A stretch of 64,000 nucleotides of DNA from Naegleria gruberi. Lineage: Eukaryota. Shown piece by piece: positions 27,637 through 60,870 of this stretch; position 1 is the first letter of the stretch; every line of letters starts with the position of its first letter. The translations under genes were made by a program, and so were the position numbers. The notes beneath the pieces are model-generated. The model was not told the origin of the DNA, made no database searches, and saw nothing but the letters and a program-made list of their open reading frames with translations. The stretch lies in the NCBI GenBank assembly GCA_000004985.1, contig GG738860.1; one strand, written 5' to 3'.

Positions 27637-30600
27637 TTATTGGTAGGCGCTATTCATCATGTAAAGAACATGATCAATTGTAATATTTCTAAATATTGAG
27701 ACTGTTGTTGGATTTGTGGGGACTGATTGCACATTTTGTTTTTTGCTCATAATAAGGTTCATTGTCATTGAGGTACTGAAATTCATCAAACTTAAAAAGT
27801 GACTATACCATTTCAAACTTTGTATTGTTGTTGGGAATTTGAATTCTACAACTCTACAGTTGTCTTGGTCCATCTTGATGACTATCTTTACAATACCTTC
27901 TATGGTTAAATGTAAAAGATCTGGTTGTTGTTTCAACATGTTTTGTGGAGGATAGTGATCAATCTTTAAAATTTGTGACATGTCCGAAAGGACAAGCTCC
28001 AATCTAGAAATACCAAAATAAATTGAACCATCATTGCAGAAGCAAATTCTTCCAGTTTTGGTATTTTCGTCCACTTGAATGAGTGAATCACTTCTCACAC
28101 TATCGTCCAATGATGAAATTTTGGAAAAGAAAAATGAGGCTTTACAAAAAGTGCTTTGGGTAAGAACGACATGTTTGTGAGATTCTTGATCTGCCAATAA
28201 GGATGATGGAACTTCAGAGAAAGACTCGATTTTTCTCAGTCTGAAAGTGGAATATTGGTTGAATTGATTAATAGTTCTGAACCATGAAAGGAATTTTTTG
28301 AGTGTTTCTGGGTTGAGCAATGTATCTGGAATGTTCAACTTGTCTTGTTGAATTTCAACGAGTTGTTGATACACTCTGTCTCCATCTTGTTTGGAGAAGA
28401 ACATTCCACTCTCGAATGTAATCATTGAGAACATTTCCTTTGAAATATTAACACAAGCAACCTCCTCATCCTTCTTTTTCTTTACAAATATGCTTGCACT
28501 TCTCCTTCTTAGACTTGATGCCTTGTTGATAGATTCGATATTCTTTGGTATGAGTTGTTGTTCAATTCTGGAGAAGTTAATATAGGGCAGCGATAAAAGA
28601 ATAGAACCATTCTTGGTGTTAATATTTGCAGTCCTACTGGATGGCACTTGTGATTGAAGTGGTGAATCGGTTGTGACATCAGTGAACGATAATGATCTAC
28701 GTTTGGTGAGAGGAGTTTGTAGGCCTTCAATATCATCATTTTCTGGTGGTGAGCTTGGAGAAACATCTTCAGTATCGTCTGGTAAAATAATTGATTCATT
28801 AGGAAGAGAAGAAGCAAGAGGGGTATCATTATTTTCTTCAAATGAGAAGGCATCAGTTTCTCCAGCTTCATCCAAATATTCGTGGAAGGATGTTCTTCTT
28901 CCACTCTTAATTGAAACATCTATGGTCTTGGATTGTTCAAATATTGATTTCACATCAGTGACATGACTTTGGTGCATTTCCATGATAATCTTTTCTAAAA
29001 AGCTTAATCTGTAATTGTCCTCAGGAGTTTGAATGTATTGAGTTTTCATCTTGGCTATATATTGTGAGAGGTTCTTCTTTGGGATTCGGAGAATGATCGA
29101 TTCAAACCATTCCCTCTTTATGAGCCTTTCATCCATACAGGTAGTAATACATTCGAGGGTATCTTCTAAGCATTTTATGTATTGCTCCTTTCTCTCATAA
29201 ATGAATGCTCTCATAAGTACAAGCCTAGATTTTACATAGTTCAATAAAATTTCATTATTACCTAGTGAGTGGGTATTATCTATTTTGTTCTCTATCCATA
29301 AAAGAAGAGAATCATTTGGATTGGATTGAGGTACTATTGAGTTTTCAAATAAATTAACATCAAAGTCGAGCAATGTGTTGGTACCAGAATAGTCGCTTGG
29401 CAATATCAGGTTTTTGTAATTTACCAATTGTTCCATCTCTCTATTTACGAATATCGAAAAGCAGAGCTCTTGGTAAAAGTATTGCTCCTCCATTCCGTGA
29501 TTGAGAAGCTCTGAAAATATCTGATTATTAAACAAATTTCTGAGAAATTCTTTAAGACGAATATCAATATCCTCTGCTTCTTCAGTAACATATTTCTTGA
29601 TATTGTCAATATAATCATTTTCGTTTCTCTTGTTTTTCTTTACCCATTTACGAGTAAGAATGTGAATATTTAAAGGTGAGAGTAATTTACAATAGAGTGA
29701 GGTAAAGGCTTCCCGAATTTTGGTGTCAGTAGAGGAATTTTGTTCATTCTGTGTGTAGGCAGCTCCTTGTAAAAAGTCCATTGTTTTGAAGGATGGCTTT
29801 TGGATAATTTTAAGTTTTTCAATTAATTGAAATCTGTATGGTTCTGGGAACTTGAATTCTCTTTCTGGAGATTTTCCATATAAGAACATGGAATTATCAA
29901 TATCTAGAACTATTAAACTCTTATCATGCTCGGTTTCTCCATTACTAATTTTTGCTGTTTGCTCAAACATTCTATTTTGTTGTTCAATTACTGAGAAGAG
30001 TTCTCTCTTGAGACTTCCATGAACACCCACAATATATGGCACGGGTGAAAGAATGGTTTCCAAAAGTTGTACAGGCAAATGTGGGATGAATGCAAACATG
30101 AGTGGAAATTGGAAAGGATATAATAGAATTCTAAGAGCTTCTGCACAGTAAGTCATGAGAGCAACACTATCACTAACGAGAATGATTTTCTTTTCGAGAA
30201 GGATAAGATTAATCAAATCAACAATCATCTCCTCAGATAAAACTCGGAATATAGTTTGAGATATGGAAATCTTTTTTCAGATTGACCTTGTTAAAATTGA
30301 AAATGTTTGAAAACAACATACATTACAAAAAGGTAACTCCTCCACATCTGGGAATCTAAGTGAATATTTCTTCTTTAAGGGTCTAAAACTCACAGAGCTA
30401 ATTCTAGAGGGTGCAGGTATTGGTACCTTATTCAGTAGCATATCTATTGTTCTTTGAAAAGCTGCCTTTTTGAGGGGAAGTTTGTCATCATTTGGGAATG
30501 TGGATCCATTGTTAAGTGTTGTGCTTTGATTTCTCATTTGTTCTTCTCTAAAACCCTTATTCAGAAAAATATCAAAAATTCCACAATTAAACATTTCAAG

Positions 30601-31611
30601 AACCATCTCTTTCAATAAATCATAAATTGGCAAAGAACTCTCAAATACTATTGCCACTTTTTCCAATTGATTATCAATTCTCAAACAAAAACAATAACAT
30701 TCATTCTTGAAAAAGTCTGTAGTAACAAATGGAAATAATTGTACAACAATTTCATCTCTATTTACATTATTCATGAGTGATGATTGTGATGTTGTTGGTG
30801 GAACTACTATCTTTGAATCTCTTGCAACATAACTCTCCTTGTTTTCATGTTGAGAATAGAAACAAAAGAGAGGCATGGATTTTAAATTTACCATCTTATC
30901 CTGTGATAGTACAGAAGGAAAGGTATAGACCAAATCTGCCTGTGGAGATGCAAACTTTTTCGGATTGAAACTCTCCTTCTGATTCGATTTTAAATGTTGT
31001 TGATAATTCATCACAGATGTTGATTCTGGTCTCTGAAAATCCAATGATGTTTTCTTCAAGGCAGGTGATGAAAAGCTCTTTCCCAACAATGATGGAGATG
31101 AAGGCTTGCTGCTATTATTCCTAGAAAATGATGAAGATGCTGATGAAACAATCGGAGAGGAAACAGGTGTAGAAGGTTGGCTGCTAAAACTATTCATAAA
31201 TAATTGATTTGAAACAGGTTGAGGAGATCCCACCTTCATCCGAGAAGACGATCCATTCAAAACACTCCCAAACAAATCACCATTCTGTTGTTGTTGTTGT
31301 TGCTGCTGGAGTTGTTCAGGTAATACAAACACGGCTACAGTCGATAAGAGAACTGCCGCTTTGGTGCTCATTTTTTCAAGATGAGAAAGAAGAGTGCTGT
31401 TACGAATAGACATACGATCCAAGAGTTTTGATGAGATATTTGAATAGGAAAGATGGACAAATTGAGAATGTACATGGATACTCGAAAGATTGTTAGAATG
31501 TTGCTGCTGGCAATAAGAAATGGTGGATGTCAATGGTTTTCTTAAATTTGGAATATTGTATGGAAATGTTGAATGAGTAAGATGGATTGTCCAGTTGATT
31601 TGTTTATCCAA
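27637..31611 (-). CDS. uDENN/DENN-domain protein (Rab GEF family); at least 2 exons. The 5' end is uncertain because the ORF-track start is a TTG.
   Basis: The downstream exon, 27637 to about 30270, begins ISISQTFIRVLSEEMIVDLINLILLEKKIILVSDS..., which is the DENN core, and continues LYPFQFPLMFAFIPHLPVQLLETILSPVPYIVGV. The upstream exon, about 30322..31611, ends ...SFRPLKKKYSLRFPDVEELPFCN, the uDENN/start of DENN. The two exons are in the same frame and are separated by a 51-nt GTATGT..AG intron (30271..30321) that contains the only in-frame stop. Confidence 0.7.
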
Positions 31612-31769
31612 AGAAAGTAAGGGCTTTAATAGATAATTTCCTTCTGGAATTTTTCGTATTTCTCAAATATTTGAACTGTGTTCTCTCCATGTTTGAAAAT
31701 ATGATTCTAAATTTAGTTCGCACATTCAATAAGTCAATTATTGAATGAAGGAATTCAATATTATTAAAA

Positions 31770-32471
31770 TCAATTATCCACCGAGAAGATTATTTGATTG
31801 TCTCCATCGACAGCTCTCTCAATTGAAGTTGTAACTTTTGGAATAATCTTTTGAGTCATATGATTCATGCAAAAATAGGTCATTAGCAATTTCTCATTAA
31901 CAGTCGTGAGAATAACCAAAATGATTGGCTGTTTGGAATCTAAGGCTTGTCGAACAGCATGTTCACTGAAACCTGAATAACTCACAAACACGCCAACTAC
32001 ATTTTGATTGGCTGATTTTTGTAATTGATAATGACTAAGTACTCCTTCAAATTCTCGAATATATTTCACTCCTACAGCATCCTTCTCCCTTTTACATTGT
32101 CCTAGAATTGGTATTGGATGAGGATTGACTTGCTTTAGAAAGGGAAAATTCCAAAAACCTTTAAAATCAATTCCCTGATCATGAGATCGTTTTGTTACAC
32201 TCAAATTAAAATCATACTCTGATAGGTATTCAACAACTTGTGCTTCAAATCTTCTTCCCAATTCTTGTGATGATGATGATGTAATTATTTCTTCCGAATT
32301 AACTTGATCCTCAGAAAGATTAATTGGAAATATTGACGAATATTTTCGTTTATCCAATGATAATCCATCAAAAAATCGTTCCGAAATAAATTGATGACTA
32401 TTCAATGAATGATGACAATTTAATTTTCCTCTCCGAGAAACAAAGAATCTTTGAGAAAGAAGTTTTTTCAT
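31770..32471 (-). CDS. Mrr-like restriction-endonuclease-fold (PD-(D/E)xK, DUF2034/RRG7-like) protein
   Basis: 233 aa with a real ATG. It carries the motifs DQGIDFKG ... ILGQCKREKDAVGVKYIREFEGVL ... VGVFVSYSGFSEHAVRQA. These match the Mrr_cat pattern (D-G-I-D ... Q-C-K-R ... f-v-t-s-x-f-t) found in yeast RRG7-type mitochondrial proteins. Confidence 0.55.
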   Translation of the reverse strand: MKKLLSQRFFVSRRGKLNCHHSLNSHQFISERFFDGLSLDKRKYSSIFPINLSEDQVNSEEIITSSSSQELGRRFEAQVVEYLSEYDFNLSVTKRSHDQGIDFKGFWNFPFLKQVNPHPIPILGQCKREKDAVGVKYIREFEGVLSHYQLQKSANQNVVGVFVSYSGFSEHAVRQALDSKQPIILVILTTVNEKLLMTYFCMNHMTQKIIPKVTTSIERAVDGDNQIIFSVDN

Positions 32472-32651
32472 TTTTTTAATTGTTTTTTAATAAATTTTTT
32501 TATTATTCACTTTTATTAAATTCATAAATCGAAAAGTCTATACAATTTTAAAAGAAATTATTCAAATTAAGTTCTAAATATAACAATTAACATTTTTGTA
32601 CTCTTAATTCCCAAAAAGAAGCTCTCAAGTTCATAGCAAAATCAAAAAAAA

Positions 32652-35196
32652 ATGCATCTCGTCACCCTAGCAACCTGTAACCTCGATCAGTGGTCTCTCG
32701 ATTTTACTGGGAACTTGGAAAGAATCAAGGAAAGTATTAAAATTTCAAAGGAAAAGGGAGCTCGTTATAGGTGTGGCCCAGAACTTGAAGTTTGTGGATA
32801 TGGTTGTGAAGATCACTTTCTTGAGAATGATACCTATACTCATTGTATGTTGTTGTATTAGTATTTCCATGATCCGAAGGTGGTATTAAATATTTTTGAT
32901 ATTATGATGAATTGATGATAATTTCAAAATTTCAATTTAGCAATGGAATGTTTGGCTGAATTGTTGAAGAGCGATTTAACTGATGATATTCTTGTAGATA
33001 TTGGTATGCCAATAATGCATAAGAGTGTAAGATATAATTGTAGAGTATTTCTATTGAATAGAAAAATTGTATTGATTCGTCCAAAATTGTTTTTGGCAAA
33101 CGATGGAAATTATAGAGAGACTAGATGGTTCTGGTAGGTTTTATTTCCTTCAATACGTATTGTTGACCTCGATTTACTTGTCTTTTGATTGATGGCTATT
33201 GAACTAATTGGAATATTTATCTAATATTTGATTTTAAAATTTGAAAAAGTGCTTGGACAAAGAGATTTGCTATTGAAGATTTCGTTCTCCCAGATTTTAT
33301 GAGAGAATTGACTGGTCAGAGAACCGTTCCAATTGGTGATTGTATTATTTCATTGAATGATACTGATTTGGCTGTTGAAACTTGTGAAGAATTGTTCACC
33401 CCAAACTCTCCTAATATTTATCTAGGTCTGGATGGTGTGGAAATTATTAGTAATGGATCTGGAAGTCATCATTCTCTTCGTAAATTGCATACTCGTATTG
33501 ATTTAATCAAGAATGCAACTGCTAAGAACGGCTTAGTATATCTTTATGCCAATCAACTAGGTTGTGATGGTGGAAGACTTTTATTTGATGGTTGTGCAAT
33601 GATTTGTTGTAATGGAGTGCTTCTTGCTCAAGGTTCTCAATTTTCCTTGAAACAGGTTGAAGTTGTGACGTAAGTTTTGATTGGATTTTTCAAGTATTTA
33701 AAATCAAAAGTGCCAATGTTGATTTAGATCAAGTGAGAGCATTTAGAAATAAGATTGCCAGTAGATCTGTGCAAGCTTCTGAATCTAGAGAATTCCCTAG
33801 AGTTCGTATTGATTTCACACTCAAAATTTCACACTATTCTCAAAGTTTGAAACCAACTCACCCAGTAGATGTCAAGTATTTCACAACCAATGAAGAAATT
33901 GCCCTAGGTCCAGCTTGTTACTTGTTCGATTATTTGAGAAGATCTAGCCAGGGTGGATATTTCCTTCCATTATCTGGAGGAGCTGATTCTAGTGCTACCG
34001 CTACTATTGTAAGCTTCTTTTATTTTCTACTGAATCTAAAATATTTTGTCAAATACTTATCATGTTATGCTTAATTTTTTTCTAGGTTGGATCAATGTGT
34101 CAATTGATTTATAAGGATTGTATTGAGGAAGCTAACTCATATGAGGAGGAATACAATAAGAAAATTGTCTTGAAGGAAATTAGAAGAATTTGTTCAAAGG
34201 GAGATGAGTGGATTCCATCCTCTCCAAAGGAAATTGCTAATATTATTTTCGTTACTTGTTATATGGGTACAGTGAATAGTTCAAATGAAACCAGAAACAG
34301 AGCTAAACAATTGGCTTCAGAAATTGGATCTCATCATATGGATATTGATATTGATACAGTTGTTAATTCAATGAAGGATTTATTTACCACTACTACTGGT
34401 AAAACTCCATCATTTGAGGGAAGTGCTGGAGAAAATATTGCTCTCCAGAATATTCAAGCCAGATTGAGAATGGTTGTCAGTTATTACTTTGCTCAATTAA
34501 TGAATTGGAGTAGAGATTTCAAACCAAAGAATTTACTTGTTCTAGGTTCTTCCAATGTTGATGAAGCTTTGAGAGGATATTTCACTAAATATGACTGCAG
34601 TTCTGCTGATATTAATCCTATTGGAAGTATTTCAAAGACTGACTTGAAAAAATTCCTCTTGTATGCCTCTGACAATTTGGGTTATCCTTCACTAAAGGAA
34701 GTTTTACAAGCCAAACCAACAGCTGAACTACAACCTCTCGAATCTCATCAAACAGATGAAGAAGATATGGGTTTGACCTATGATGAACTTTCTCGTTTTG
34801 GTATTTTAAGAAAGGTCTACGGTACGTGTTGTGTGAATATTAAGAATTGTTTATTAACATTTTTATTAATTGATTTATTGAATTTTTATTTAAATAGGAA
34901 ATGGACCTGTTGAATGTTTCAATAATCTAGTTTATGAATGGAGAGACAAGATGAGTATTCTTCAAATTGCTGATAAGGTTAAACGTTTCTACAGATACTA
35001 TGCAATCAATCGTCACAAAATGACCACTCTCACACCATCCTATCACTGCGAATCCTACAGTCCAGAAGACAATAGGTTTGACCTGAGACAATTTCTCTAT
35101 CCTGTTGATTTCCAATGGCAATTCAAACAAATTGATGATTTAGTAATTCAATATCAAGAGGAGGAAGAGAAGGTTAAAAAGAGTAGTAAATTGTAA
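32652..35196 (+). CDS. NADSYN1: glutamine-dependent NAD+ synthetase; 6 exons
   Basis: Approximate exons: 32652-32844, 32941-33133, 33250-33669, 33711-34008, 34086-34821 and 34898-35196. Donors are GTATGT, GTAGGT, GTAAGT, GTAAGC and GTACGT. The spliced protein aligns end to end with human NADSYN1/yeast Qns1: the nitrilase domain ([16 protein letters not shown]..., [34 protein letters not shown]), the PP-loop SGGADSS, and the C-terminus [20 protein letters not shown]. Confidence 0.9.
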
Positions 35197-54362: not shown

Positions 54363-54982
54363 TTTGTCTAAATTTAATTATGTTGTGAAGGACAAGTTTT
54401 TTGATAAACATAAATTCAAAGAGATTTATTATTGGAATCATAACTAAGGAAAGAAAGCATGTTATATGATGTTTGAAGTTTCAATTTCGATTTGATCAGA
54501 AAATAGAAAATGAGAAACCAAAACTTGCATCCATCAATTCAGGAGTTAAATATTCAATTTATAGAAGGGTGATCAACCTAATCAATATCTTCAAACAAAA
54601 CCTGAACCAACAAGATTCTGTCTTCGTTGCCTTCACTGTTCATACAGTCAAAGACTGTAGCGGGATTGTCGTCATATTCCTGGCAGGCTTCCCGTCCAAT
54701 GAAACCTAAAAGAATATCCAAAAATTAATGTTACTAAATTGTTAATAACTTAATTACTGAAAGTTTGTATTGAGTTGGTCGTGGATCGATTACAGAGCTT
54801 AATAGGTTAACCACTTTAAGTATTACTAAGTAGCATTAAGTTTTGCAAAGAAGTTCCATATTCTTTATATTCATTGCATTGATTTACCTTTGCTATTAAT
54901 CGTGACTCGTTATATTTGGAAAAGATTCGTCGTGCCAATGCTATCATGTTAATGGACACAATGGAAGATGATGAACTGAATG

Positions 54983-55100
54983 GCTACGGCCATATCACGA
55001 TGAATGCACCTCATCCCGTCCGATTTGAGAAGTTAAGCATCGTCGAGCCACATCAGTACTGAGGTTGGAGACAACTTGGGAACCTGTGGTGCTGTAGTCT
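54983..55100 (+). rRNA. 5S ribosomal RNA gene
   Basis: The sequence GGCTACGGCCATATCACGATGAATGCACCTCATCCCGTCCGATTTGAGAAGTTAAGCATCGTCGAGCCACATCAGTACTGAGGTTGGAGACAACTTGGGAACCTGTGGTGCTGTAGTCT matches the universal 5S blocks (ACGGCCATA, CATCCCGTCCGAT, GAAGTTAAGC, GTACT, GGGAA...GGTGCTGTAG). The ends pair to form helix I, and a T-run lies downstream. Confidence 0.8.
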
Positions 55101-55617: not shown

Positions 55618-55688
55618 CTCGAGTGCCGGGAATTGAACCCGGGTCGCCAGAGTGACAGTCTGGAATGCTACCACTATACCACACCCGA
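55618..55688 (-). tRNA. tRNA-Asp (anticodon GUC)
   Basis: The reverse complement is TCGGGTGTGGTATAGTGGTAGCATTCCAGACTGTCACTCTGGCGACCCGGGTTCAATTCCCGGCACTCGAG. The anticodon loop is CTGTCAC. Confidence 0.9.
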
Positions 55689-60789: not shown

Positions 60790-60870
60790 CGTTGAGGATG
60801 GGATTCGAACCCACGCGGATTACTCCACCAACTTAGCAGGCTGGCGCCTTAACCACTCGGCCACCTCAAC
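60790..60870 (-). tRNA. tRNA-Ser (anticodon GCU), class II with long variable arm
   Basis: The reverse complement is GTTGAGGTGGCCGAGTGGTTAAGGCGCCAGCCTGCTAAGTTGGTGGAGTAATCCGCGTGGGTTCGAATCCCATCCTCAACG. The Ser-type D-loop (GGCCGAGTGGTTAAGGC), anticodon loop CTGCTAA and a long variable arm are all present. Confidence 0.85.

What the first reader, a model, noticed from the sequence alone, without database searches (positions are those of the whole stretch)
31770..32471. Mrr-type restriction-endonuclease-fold protein in a eukaryotic nuclear locus
The 233-aa protein carries the Mrr catalytic-domain signature: DQGIDF, then ...QCKREKDAVGVKYIREF, then ...VGVFVSYSGFSEHA, a PD-(D/E)xK-like core. Such domains are bacterial restriction components, but they are also found in the fungal/amoebozoan mitochondrial RRG7 family (DUF2034). 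The N-terminal 60 residues are basic and hydrophobic, like a mitochondrial presequence. If the catalytic residues are intact, this could be an organellar nuclease of unknown substrate.
Basis: partly seen in the sequence, partly recalled or inferred. Interest (0 to 1): 0.5.

Follow-up and report, generated by a model that had tools for sequence, protein, structure and literature searches.

The report
Naegleria ortholog of mitochondrial Rrg7 nuclease-fold protein
This is an ordinary, already catalogued Naegleria gruberi nuclear gene for a member of the eukaryote-wide RRG7 family, a small restriction-enzyme-like (Mrr-type) protein that probably works as a nuclease inside mitochondria but whose substrate nobody has identified.

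Summary
Window 31770..32471 (-) is an intronless 233-aa ORF identical to N. gruberi XP_002678914.1 / UniProt D2VAZ7 ("predicted protein"). It matches Pfam Mrr_cat (E=2e-14) and RRG7/DUF2034 (E=1e-12).

- **Family:** All 129 closest relatives scanned, taken from the best 150 hits of a 1.84-billion-protein profile search, match RRG7. The named ones are eukaryotic: Heterolobosea, Amoebozoa, an oomycete and fungi. No close bacterial, archaeal, plasmid or phage relative was found.
- **Yeast link:** A profile-profile comparison with yeast Rrg7 gives 97.7% probability.
- **Catalytic residues:** The Mrr-type set is intact. E76, D98, D102 and K127 are 129/129 conserved and Q125 is 127/129. D102 and Q125 align to MspJI D334 and Q355, whose mutation abolishes cleavage.
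- **Targeting:** The first 30 residues have 6 K/R and no D/E, which is presequence-like.

Best reading: a mitochondrially imported, metal-dependent nuclease orthologous to yeast Rrg7. Localisation, activity and substrate are inferred, not shown. Yor305w/DUF2034 was already placed in the PD-(D/E)xK superfamily (2005, 2012). Low novelty.

The parts
31770..32471 (-). Complete intronless CDS (233 codons plus stop), identical to N. gruberi XP_002678914.1 / EFC46170.1 / D2VAZ7 (NAEGRDRAFT_66035)
   Evidence: ORF list. Exact-sequence look-up.
32382..32471 (-). Residues 1-30: presequence-like N-terminus (6 K/R, 0 D/E, S/L-rich). Putative mitochondrial targeting signal.
   Evidence: Composition. Family-wide versus control comparison. 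Inference only; no trained predictor was available.
32280..32381 (-). Residues 31-64: poorly conserved, predicted-disordered linker. It contains an R-x-Y|S (R-3-like) candidate processing site at R42-K43-Y44-S45.
   Evidence: pLDDT <50 (7-sequence alignment) and 47-64 (129-sequence alignment). Regex hit. The processing site is speculative.
31899..32270 (-). Residues 68-191: PD-(D/E)xK (Mrr-type) nuclease core, with elements a1-b1-b2-b3-a2-b4-a3-b5
32244..32246 (-). Glu76 codon: invariant acidic residue of helix a1
   Evidence: 129/129 conserved. Aligns to yeast E38.
32166..32183 (-). H97-D98-Q99-G100-I101-D102: the 'D' half of the Mrr D...QxK motif. D102 corresponds to MspJI D334.
   Evidence: D98 and D102 are 129/129 conserved. 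Profile alignment to 4f0p. D334A abolishes MspJI activity (PMC2938202).
32091..32099 (-). Q125-C126-K127: the QxK half of the motif. Q125 corresponds to MspJI Q355 and K127 to K357.
   Evidence: Q 127/129, C 128/129, K 129/129. Alignment to 4f0p. Q355A abolishes MspJI activity.
31773..31898 (-). Residues 192-233: RRG7-specific C-terminal extension (b-strand, short helix, two b-strands) with near-invariant Asn203. It is absent from the 115-position Mrr_cat model.
32472..32651 (.). 180-bp A/T-rich intergenic spacer shared with the divergently transcribed glutamine-dependent NAD synthase gene. Presumed bidirectional promoter.
   Evidence: Sequence. CN_hydrolase and NAD_synthase hits in ORFs at 32652.., 33299.. 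and 34095... Promoter function is inferred.

Best explanation
The gene encodes the Naegleria gruberi ortholog of yeast Rrg7 (Pfam RRG7/DUF2034), a stand-alone Mrr-type PD-(D/E)xK nuclease domain with no DNA-reader domain. The likely mechanism has three steps. First, the basic N-terminal ~30-45 residues direct import into the mitochondrial matrix and are removed. Second, the mature ~19-21 kDa protein folds into the a-bbb-a-b restriction-endonuclease core. In that core E76, D102 and Q125 coordinate Mg2+, and K127 positions the attacking water, as in Mrr and MspJI. Third, the enzyme cleaves phosphodiester bonds in mitochondrial nucleic acid. The substrate is most probably mtDNA, recognised by structure (branched or damaged molecules) or non-specifically rather than by sequence or modification. 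The family-specific C-terminal beta extension probably provides oligomerisation or substrate contacts. Shown here: gene identity, family membership, fold, and conservation of catalytic residues across four eukaryotic lineages. Inferred: import, catalysis, substrate and physiological role.
Against: No biochemical activity has been reported for any RRG7 member in the papers searched. Merz & Westermann judged that the yeast deletion strain 'presumably' acquired its respiratory defect independently of genotype, so even the yeast phenotype is soft. The protein was not found in the ~600 stored rows of the N. gruberi mitochondrial proteome table. That is inconclusive, because 344 rows (the unknown-function class) were truncated. 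My targeting test is a simple charge count. Residues 31-60 are net acidic, and the Willaertia ortholog model lacks a basic N-terminus. Nothing shows whether the substrate is DNA or RNA.
Confidence: 0.7

Rival explanations
1. Inactive nuclease-fold protein. The domain is kept as a nucleic-acid- or protein-binding scaffold, as with the Rpb5 N-terminal domain or NACHT-associated inactive REases, and no longer cleaves anything.
For: There is a weak Pfam hit to NA-iREase1 (E=0.15). Five relatives hit that model. The Rpb5 fold appears among structural neighbours. No activity has ever been reported for the family.
Against: Inactivated PD-(D/E)xK domains typically lose the acidic and lysine residues. 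Here E76, D98, D102 and K127 are 129/129 conserved and Q125 is 127/129 across very divergent eukaryotes. That is the pattern expected of a working metal site.
Confidence: 0.12
2. Mitochondrial RNA-processing nuclease. The same protein and location, but the substrate is mitochondrial RNA (transcript end processing or turnover), as for the PD-(D/E)xK protein Pet127.
For: PD-(D/E)xK members acting on RNA exist, including Pet127 and the tRNA-splicing endonuclease (PMC3424549; Sen34 appears). Most high-confidence yeast pet genes concern mitochondrial translation or RNA maturation.
Against: All the closest structural and sequence neighbours (AF1548, NucS, FokI, MspJI, AspBHI, LlaBIII, Hjc) are DNA enzymes. 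The only mtDNA-related phenotype is loss of mtDNA.
Confidence: 0.12
3. Active nuclease that is not mitochondrial. It would act in the nucleus or cytosol, for example on Naegleria's extrachromosomal rDNA circle or on ingested bacterial DNA.
For: Localisation was not measured. The protein is absent from the visible part of the N. gruberi mitochondrial proteome table. The Willaertia ortholog model has no basic N-terminus.
Against: The N-terminus is presequence-like here and in most relatives. The yeast ortholog is reported as mitochondrial. No nuclear localisation signal or extra domain was seen.
Confidence: 0.05
4. Recent horizontal acquisition of a bacterial Mrr-type restriction or defence nuclease (or bacterial contamination), working as a modification-dependent restriction enzyme.
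For: The Mrr_cat score is slightly higher than the RRG7 score for this protein (54 versus 48 bits). There are weak PADLOC hits to the nuclease domains of PDC-S02, mREase_II and ZorD.
Against: The gene sits on a 537-kb N. gruberi scaffold among eukaryotic genes, and its GC content matches the surroundings. All nearest relatives are RRG7 proteins from eukaryotes. A motif-guided scan of 185,579 prokaryotic genomes found no relative, and tblastn found none in plasmids or phages. The protein lacks the N-terminal DNA-reader domain of Mrr and MspJI. The PADLOC hits cover only the C-terminal nuclease part of much longer proteins.
Confidence: 0.01

Closest known systems
Saccharomyces cerevisiae Rrg7 (YOR305W) / Pfam PF10356 RRG7 (formerly DUF2034)
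   Same: It shares the single-domain architecture: an N-terminal extension, the Mrr-type core and a C-terminal extension. The conserved residues match; the Naegleria-to-yeast pairs are E76/E38, D98/D62, D102/D66, Q125-C126-K127/Q124-C125-K126, R139-E140/R139-E140 and N203/N212. The Pfam RRG7 hit is above cut-off. Size is similar (233 versus 242 aa).
   Different: Pairwise identity is only ~21% over 152 aligned profile columns. Yeast proteins carry a ~40-residue insertion between b2 and b3 that Naegleria lacks. Because of this the Naegleria protein also scores well on the generic Mrr_cat model, whereas the S. paradoxus Rrg7p scanned here does not and most Saccharomycetaceae relatives carry no precomputed Mrr_cat hit. 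The yeast presequence is short (the domain starts at about aa 29) against ~65 aa here.
Bacterial Mrr-family catalytic domain (Pfam PF04471 Mrr_cat), e.g. E. coli Mrr, MspJI (PDB 4f0p/4f0q), AspBHI, LlaBIII nuclease domain
   Same: It has the same D...QxK variant of the PD-(D/E)xK site and the same fold. Evidence: Foldseek E=5e-5, the family-profile hit to MspJI E=3e-5, and residue-for-residue alignment of D334, Q355 and K357.
   Different: The bacterial enzymes couple the nuclease to an N-terminal modified-DNA reader (winged helix or SRA-like) and act in restriction. This protein has no reader domain. It has a targeting-like N-terminus, a family-specific C-terminal beta extension and an almost invariant Cys in QCK (MspJI has QAK).
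AF1548 (PDB 1y88), archaeal stand-alone Mrr_cat-group protein of unknown function
   Different: Identity is 16-17%. It is archaeal with no organellar context. Only about 110 of the ~168 folded residues align.
Archaeal structure-specific PD-(D/E)xK nucleases (NucS/EndoMS, Hjc Holliday-junction resolvase)
   Different: There is no detectable sequence-family membership. Their catalytic motif is (D/E)xK rather than QxK. Dimer interfaces and substrates are unknown for RRG7.

Membership tests
RRG7 (Pfam PF10356, DUF2034) | Significant match to the family HMM above the curated cut-off | tested here: met
   48.3 bits against a cut-off of 22, E=1e-12.
RRG7 (Pfam PF10356, DUF2034) | Nearest relatives in sequence space are RRG7 proteins, including homology to the founding yeast protein | tested here: met
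   129/129 of the best profile hits scanned match RRG7. hhalign against Saccharomycetaceae Rrg7 gives 97.7%, E=1.4e-12. The yeast sequence was verified at 100% to P0174 and 88% to S. paradoxus Rrg7p.
RRG7 (Pfam PF10356, DUF2034) | C-terminal extension beyond the Mrr_cat core, with the conserved Asn motif | tested here: met
   hhalign runs to aa 217. N203 (124/129 conserved) pairs with the invariant yeast N212. The extension is confidently modelled as beta strands.
RRG7 (Pfam PF10356, DUF2034) | Mitochondrial localisation | not testable with these tools
   Only composition evidence is available: 6 K/R and 0 D/E in the first 30 aa. The N. gruberi proteome table held here is truncated. Yeast Rrg7 is reported as mitochondrial (PMC2768984).
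RRG7 (Pfam PF10356, DUF2034) | Requirement for respiratory growth or mtDNA maintenance | not testable with these tools
   This is a genetic phenotype, known only for yeast, and the reports disagree in part.
Mrr_cat (Pfam PF04471) / PD-(D/E)xK superfamily | HMM match and restriction-endonuclease-like a/b fold | tested here: met
Mrr_cat (Pfam PF04471) / PD-(D/E)xK superfamily | Intact D...(Q/E)xK metal-binding motif | tested here: met
   D102, Q125 and K127 align to MspJI D334, Q355 and K357. They are invariant or near-invariant in 129 relatives.
Mrr_cat (Pfam PF04471) / PD-(D/E)xK superfamily | Phosphodiesterase activity | not testable with these tools
   This needs an in vitro nuclease assay.
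Type IV (modification-dependent) restriction enzymes of the Mrr/MspJI kind | N-terminal modified-DNA recognition domain fused to the nuclease | tested here: not met
   No domain lies upstream of aa 65. That region is disordered, unconserved and presequence-like.
Type IV (modification-dependent) restriction enzymes of the Mrr/MspJI kind | Prokaryotic defence context | tested here: not met
   The locus is eukaryotic and nuclear. No close prokaryotic, plasmid or phage relatives were found. PADLOC gives only weak, domain-only hits.

The most novel reading that the evidence does not exclude
RRG7 proteins are catalytically active endonucleases that were already present in the mitochondria of early eukaryotes. 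In this reading a restriction-type (Mrr) nuclease domain lost its reader domain and became a housekeeping enzyme that resolves, trims or destroys aberrant mtDNA molecules. Naegleria, whose protein lacks the fungal insertion and looks closest to the generic Mrr core, would then be a convenient minimal member for finding the long-unknown substrate.
Probability: 0.3. Interest if true: 0.5.

Novelty: already known. Interest (0 to 1): 0.25.

Why it matters
For genome annotation, it allows a 'predicted protein' of N. gruberi to be named as an Rrg7 ortholog. More broadly, RRG7 is one of the few widely conserved proteins with a reported mitochondrial localisation (in yeast) that has an obviously enzymatic fold and still no known substrate. 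The active site is invariant across at least four distant eukaryotic lineages: Heterolobosea, Amoebozoa, oomycetes and fungi. That argues that a real nuclease activity is under selection, and it makes a simple biochemical test worthwhile. The Naegleria gene itself adds no new principle.

Tried and rejected
- **NCBIfam:** no hit, as expected for a library of prokaryotic naming models.
- **PDB by single sequence:** only a marginal MspJI hit (E=0.57). The family profile was needed to reach E=3e-5.
- **afdb50 fold library:** not installed.
- **Prokaryotic genome scan with alignment A1:** 102 pattern matches, none confirmed by tblastn. Absence of bacterial relatives therefore rests on a motif-guided scan plus the RRG7-only composition of the top hits. 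It is not based on a phylogeny with a bacterial outgroup.
- **Synteny:** not conserved with N. fowleri, where the gene lies between a DEAD-box helicase and a protein kinase. Gene order gives no functional clue.
- **Literature search by accession** (NAEGRDRAFT_66035, XP_002678914, D2VAZ7, EFC46170): no papers.
- **N. gruberi mitochondrial proteome supplement:** the protein is not in the stored rows, but 344 rows are cut.
- **Acanthamoeba and Andalucia proteome supplements:** nothing usable.
- **Bacterial promoter/terminator scan:** at shuffle level, and irrelevant for a eukaryote.
- **Domain fusions as functional hints:** the only one is a Dak1/Dak2 fusion in an Aphanomyces model, probably a merged gene model.
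- **HGT/contamination and inactive-domain readings:** considered and rejected or down-weighted, as set out under the rival explanations.

Full report
**1. The observation**

Window 31770..32471 on the minus strand is an uninterrupted ATG-initiated ORF of 233 codons. I verified on the DNA that 32166..32183 encodes HDQGID and 32091..32099 encodes QCK.

Pfam gives Mrr_cat E=2e-14 (54.2 bits, aa 72-186, profile 6-106 of 115) and RRG7 E=1e-12 (48.3 bits). Both are well above the curated cut-offs.

**2. Where the window comes from**

An exact-sequence look-up shows that the protein is Naegleria gruberi XP_002678914.1 / EFC46170.1 / UniProt D2VAZ7, 'predicted protein NAEGRDRAFT_66035'. Four other window ORFs are also exact N. 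gruberi NEG-M proteins on the same 537-kb scaffold.

The surroundings are typical nuclear DNA of this amoeboflagellate:
- GC content is 31-38% throughout.
- An intron-split glutamine-dependent NAD synthase is transcribed divergently from a 180-bp spacer.
- Other neighbours are a HAD hydrolase, a Cache/adenylate-cyclase protein, a DENN-domain protein and ankyrin repeats.
- There are five tRNA genes and a 5S rRNA gene.

A metagenomic contig (L004) is 98.4% identical over 2.9 kb. Within the CDS it differs by 4 synonymous changes, all in the domain, and 2 amino-acid changes, both in the N-terminal 34 residues.

**3. Relatives**

A word-indexed search found orthologs in N. fowleri, N. lovaniensis, Willaertia magna and Acrasis kona at 34-54% identity. 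The core blocks SHDQGIDFKG, GQCKREKD..GVK.IREFEGVLS and G.FVS.SGF are almost identical among them, while the N-termini vary greatly.

An exhaustive HMMER profile search of 1.84 billion representatives returned 1183 proteins at E<=1e-3 and 402 at E<=1e-10. I aligned 129 of the best 150. All 129 match Pfam RRG7 and 123 also match Mrr_cat.

Those that carry names come from:
- Glomeromycota (Rhizophagus, Acaulospora, Gigaspora, Diversispora, Funneliformis);
- Basidiomycota (Pleurotus) and Ascomycota (Kalaharituber, plus Saccharomycetaceae through);
- Amoebozoa (Balamuthia, Dictyostelium);
- an oomycete (Aphanomyces);
- EukProt transcriptomes.

A motif-guided scan of one genome from each of 185,579 bacterial and archaeal species confirmed no relative. 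tblastn against 72,556 plasmids and 50,697 phage records found nothing at E<=1e-3. The gene is therefore a member of a eukaryote-wide family, not a recent bacterial import.

**4. Relation to yeast Rrg7**

The S. cerevisiae Rrg7 sequence, which I supplied from memory, was verified by the database. It is 100% identical over its full length to P0174 and 88% identical to 'Rrg7p [S. paradoxus]', with dozens of relatives named 'Required for respiratory growth protein 7, mitochondrial'.

A profile of 18 Saccharomycetaceae Rrg7 proteins aligns with the heterolobosean profile at 97.7% probability, E=1.4e-12, over aa 64-217. The aligned pairs, Naegleria to yeast, are:
- E76 to E38
- D98 to D62
- D102 to D66
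- Q125-C126-K127 to Q124-C125-K126
- R139-E140 to R139-E140
- G143 to G143
- N203 to N212

On the yeast side all of these are invariant or >=90% conserved. Yeast proteins have an extra ~40 residues between strands b2 and b3. This probably explains why the Naegleria protein scores well on the generic Mrr_cat model while yeast Rrg7 does not.

**5. Catalytic residues**

Across the 129 relatives, E76, D98, D102 and K127 are 129/129 conserved. Q125 is 127/129, C126 is 128/129, R139 is 128/129 and N203 is 124/129.

The family profile hits one solved protein by sequence, MspJI (4f0p), at E=3e-5. The alignment places D102 on D334, Q125 on Q355 and K127 on K357. In MspJI the D...(Q/E)xK motif is described as the metal-binding catalytic motif, and D334A and Q355A abolish cleavage (PMC2938202). 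The site is thus the Mrr variant of PD-(D/E)xK, and it is intact.

**6. Structure**

AlphaFold2 with the 129-sequence alignment gives mean pLDDT 83, pTM 0.72 and values mostly above 90 from residue 65 to 233. The 7-sequence run gave the same topology.

The elements are a1 68-86, b1 88-92, b2 103-107, b3 120-127, a2 135-151, b4 159-164, a3 170-178 and b5 183-191. An extra b 194-202, a 204-209, b 213-219 and b 225-231 follow. Residues 1-64 are low-confidence.

Structural neighbours:
- Foldseek: MspJI first (E=5e-5), then AspBHI, NucS/EndoMS, Hjc, AF1548 and the Rpb5 N-domain.

**7. N-terminus**

Residues 1-30 (MKKLLSQRFFVSRRGKLNCHHSLNSHQFIS) have 6 K/R and no D/E, and are rich in S, L and F. The first acidic residue is E31. 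Residues 31-60 are net acidic, so '60 basic residues' overstates the case.

An R-x-Y|S pattern at R42-S45 is a candidate processing site, but it is only a regex hit. Among relatives that start with Met and have at least 25 residues before the domain, 67 of 99 have net charge >=+3 with at most one acidic residue in the first 25 positions. Only 2 of 26 long ATG ORFs in the window do.

This is a crude but consistent signal. No trained predictor was available, so localisation remains an inference. Yeast Rrg7's reported mitochondrial localisation supports it (PMC2768984). The N. gruberi mitochondrial proteome table (PMC8134430) does not list the protein in the ~600 rows held here, but 344 rows of the unknown-function class were cut. 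That check is inconclusive.

**8. What it most likely does**

The protein is a reader-less Mrr-type nuclease domain with a targeting-like extension. The most economical mechanism is import into mitochondria followed by Mg2+-dependent phosphodiester cleavage. E76, D102 and Q125 would bind the metal, and K127 would position the attacking water.

With no sequence- or modification-reading domain, substrate choice is probably structural, non-specific or partner-dependent. The structural neighbours NucS and Hjc show that small PD-(D/E)xK proteins can read DNA structure. The C-terminal extension may supply oligomerisation or contacts.

Yeast data tie the family loosely to respiration and mtDNA:
- RRG7 is a pet gene of unknown function.
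- The deletion strain was scored as having lost mtDNA (PMC4149433).
- The deletion strain showed ~7-fold higher CoQ6 (PMC8435697).
- However, Merz & Westermann thought the respiratory defect might be independent of genotype.

None of this defines a substrate.

Confidence by step:
- Family membership: about 0.95.
- Active nuclease: about 0.6-0.7.
- Mitochondrial location: about 0.7.
- DNA rather than RNA substrate: about 0.6.

**9. Rivals**

- **Inactive scaffold.** Disfavoured by the invariant catalytic set.
- **RNA substrate.** Possible, since Pet127 is a mitochondrial PD-(D/E)xK precedent (PMC3424549). All close neighbours, however, are DNA enzymes.
- **Non-mitochondrial nuclease.** Not excluded, but it runs against the N-terminal signal and the yeast localisation.
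- **Recent HGT, contamination or a restriction enzyme.** Effectively excluded by genomic context, the eukaryote-only nearest relatives and the lack of a reader domain. PADLOC gives only weak hits to the nuclease ends of much longer defence proteins.

**10. Comparison with the known, and novelty**

[quoted passage not shown] The 2012 superfamily survey groups Mrr_cat with DUF2034 and notes 'Eukaryota (without Plantae), Bacteria, Archaea, phages' and 'DUF2034 function is unknown' (PMC3424549). [quoted passage not shown] Public databases already attach PF10356 and PF04471 to this cluster and name the N. fowleri ortholog 'Restriction endonuclease type IV Mrr domain-containing protein'.

The finding is therefore correct but already known: an ordinary ortholog in a described, still uncharacterised family. 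Its residual interest lies in that family's unknown substrate and in the strict conservation of the active site across distant eukaryotes.

Noticed in passing
window 32091..32099 (Q125-C126-K127): The middle residue of the QxK catalytic motif is Cys in 128 of 129 RRG7-family proteins, whereas MspJI has QAK. A near-invariant cysteine next to the catalytic lysine is unexplained. It could be a metal ligand, a redox switch or a packing constraint.
   Followed up: partly
window 54982..55100 (+); tRNAs at 16507..16577 (-), 22080..22150 (+), 22756..22828 (+), 55618..55688 (-), 60790..60870 (-): A 5S rRNA gene (Rfam 105 bits) and five tRNA genes (Gly-GCC, Trp-CCA, Ala-TGC, Asp-GTC, Ser-GCT) are scattered among the protein-coding genes.
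   Followed up: no
L001 8001..8975 (N. fowleri) versus window 31770..32471: Gene order around the ortholog is not conserved between the two Naegleria species. In N. fowleri it lies between a DEAD-box helicase and a protein kinase. In N. gruberi it lies between an unknown polyQ ORF and NAD synthase. The N. fowleri and N. lovaniensis proteins are also 76-91 aa longer, with low-complexity insertions after a2 and before the C-terminal extension.
   Followed up: partly
P0095 (Aphanomyces stellatus, 755 aa): An oomycete gene model joins an N-terminal RRG7/Mrr_cat domain (aa 37-144) to a full dihydroxyacetone kinase (Dak1 + Dak2). It could be a merged gene model or a real fusion. This was the only domain fusion seen among the 129 relatives.
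   Followed up: no
L004 1..2922 versus window 30288..33229: An environmental metagenome contig (ENA ERZ929261, PRJEB11402) is 98.4% identical to this stretch of the N. gruberi genome, so a close N. gruberi strain or sibling species was present in that sample.
   Followed up: partly
window 30277..31611 (-): The adjacent 444-aa ORF contains a (Gln)9 run and is Ser-rich. It has no Pfam match and begins at a TTG in the ORF list, so its true start or exon structure is unclear. It may belong with the DENN-domain ORF at 27637..30228 as one intron-containing gene.
   Followed up: no
A3 (Saccharomycetaceae Rrg7) versus A1: Budding-yeast Rrg7 proteins carry a ~40-residue insertion between strands b2 and b3 of the nuclease core. 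Heterolobosean proteins lack it, as do most other relatives inspected.
   Followed up: partly
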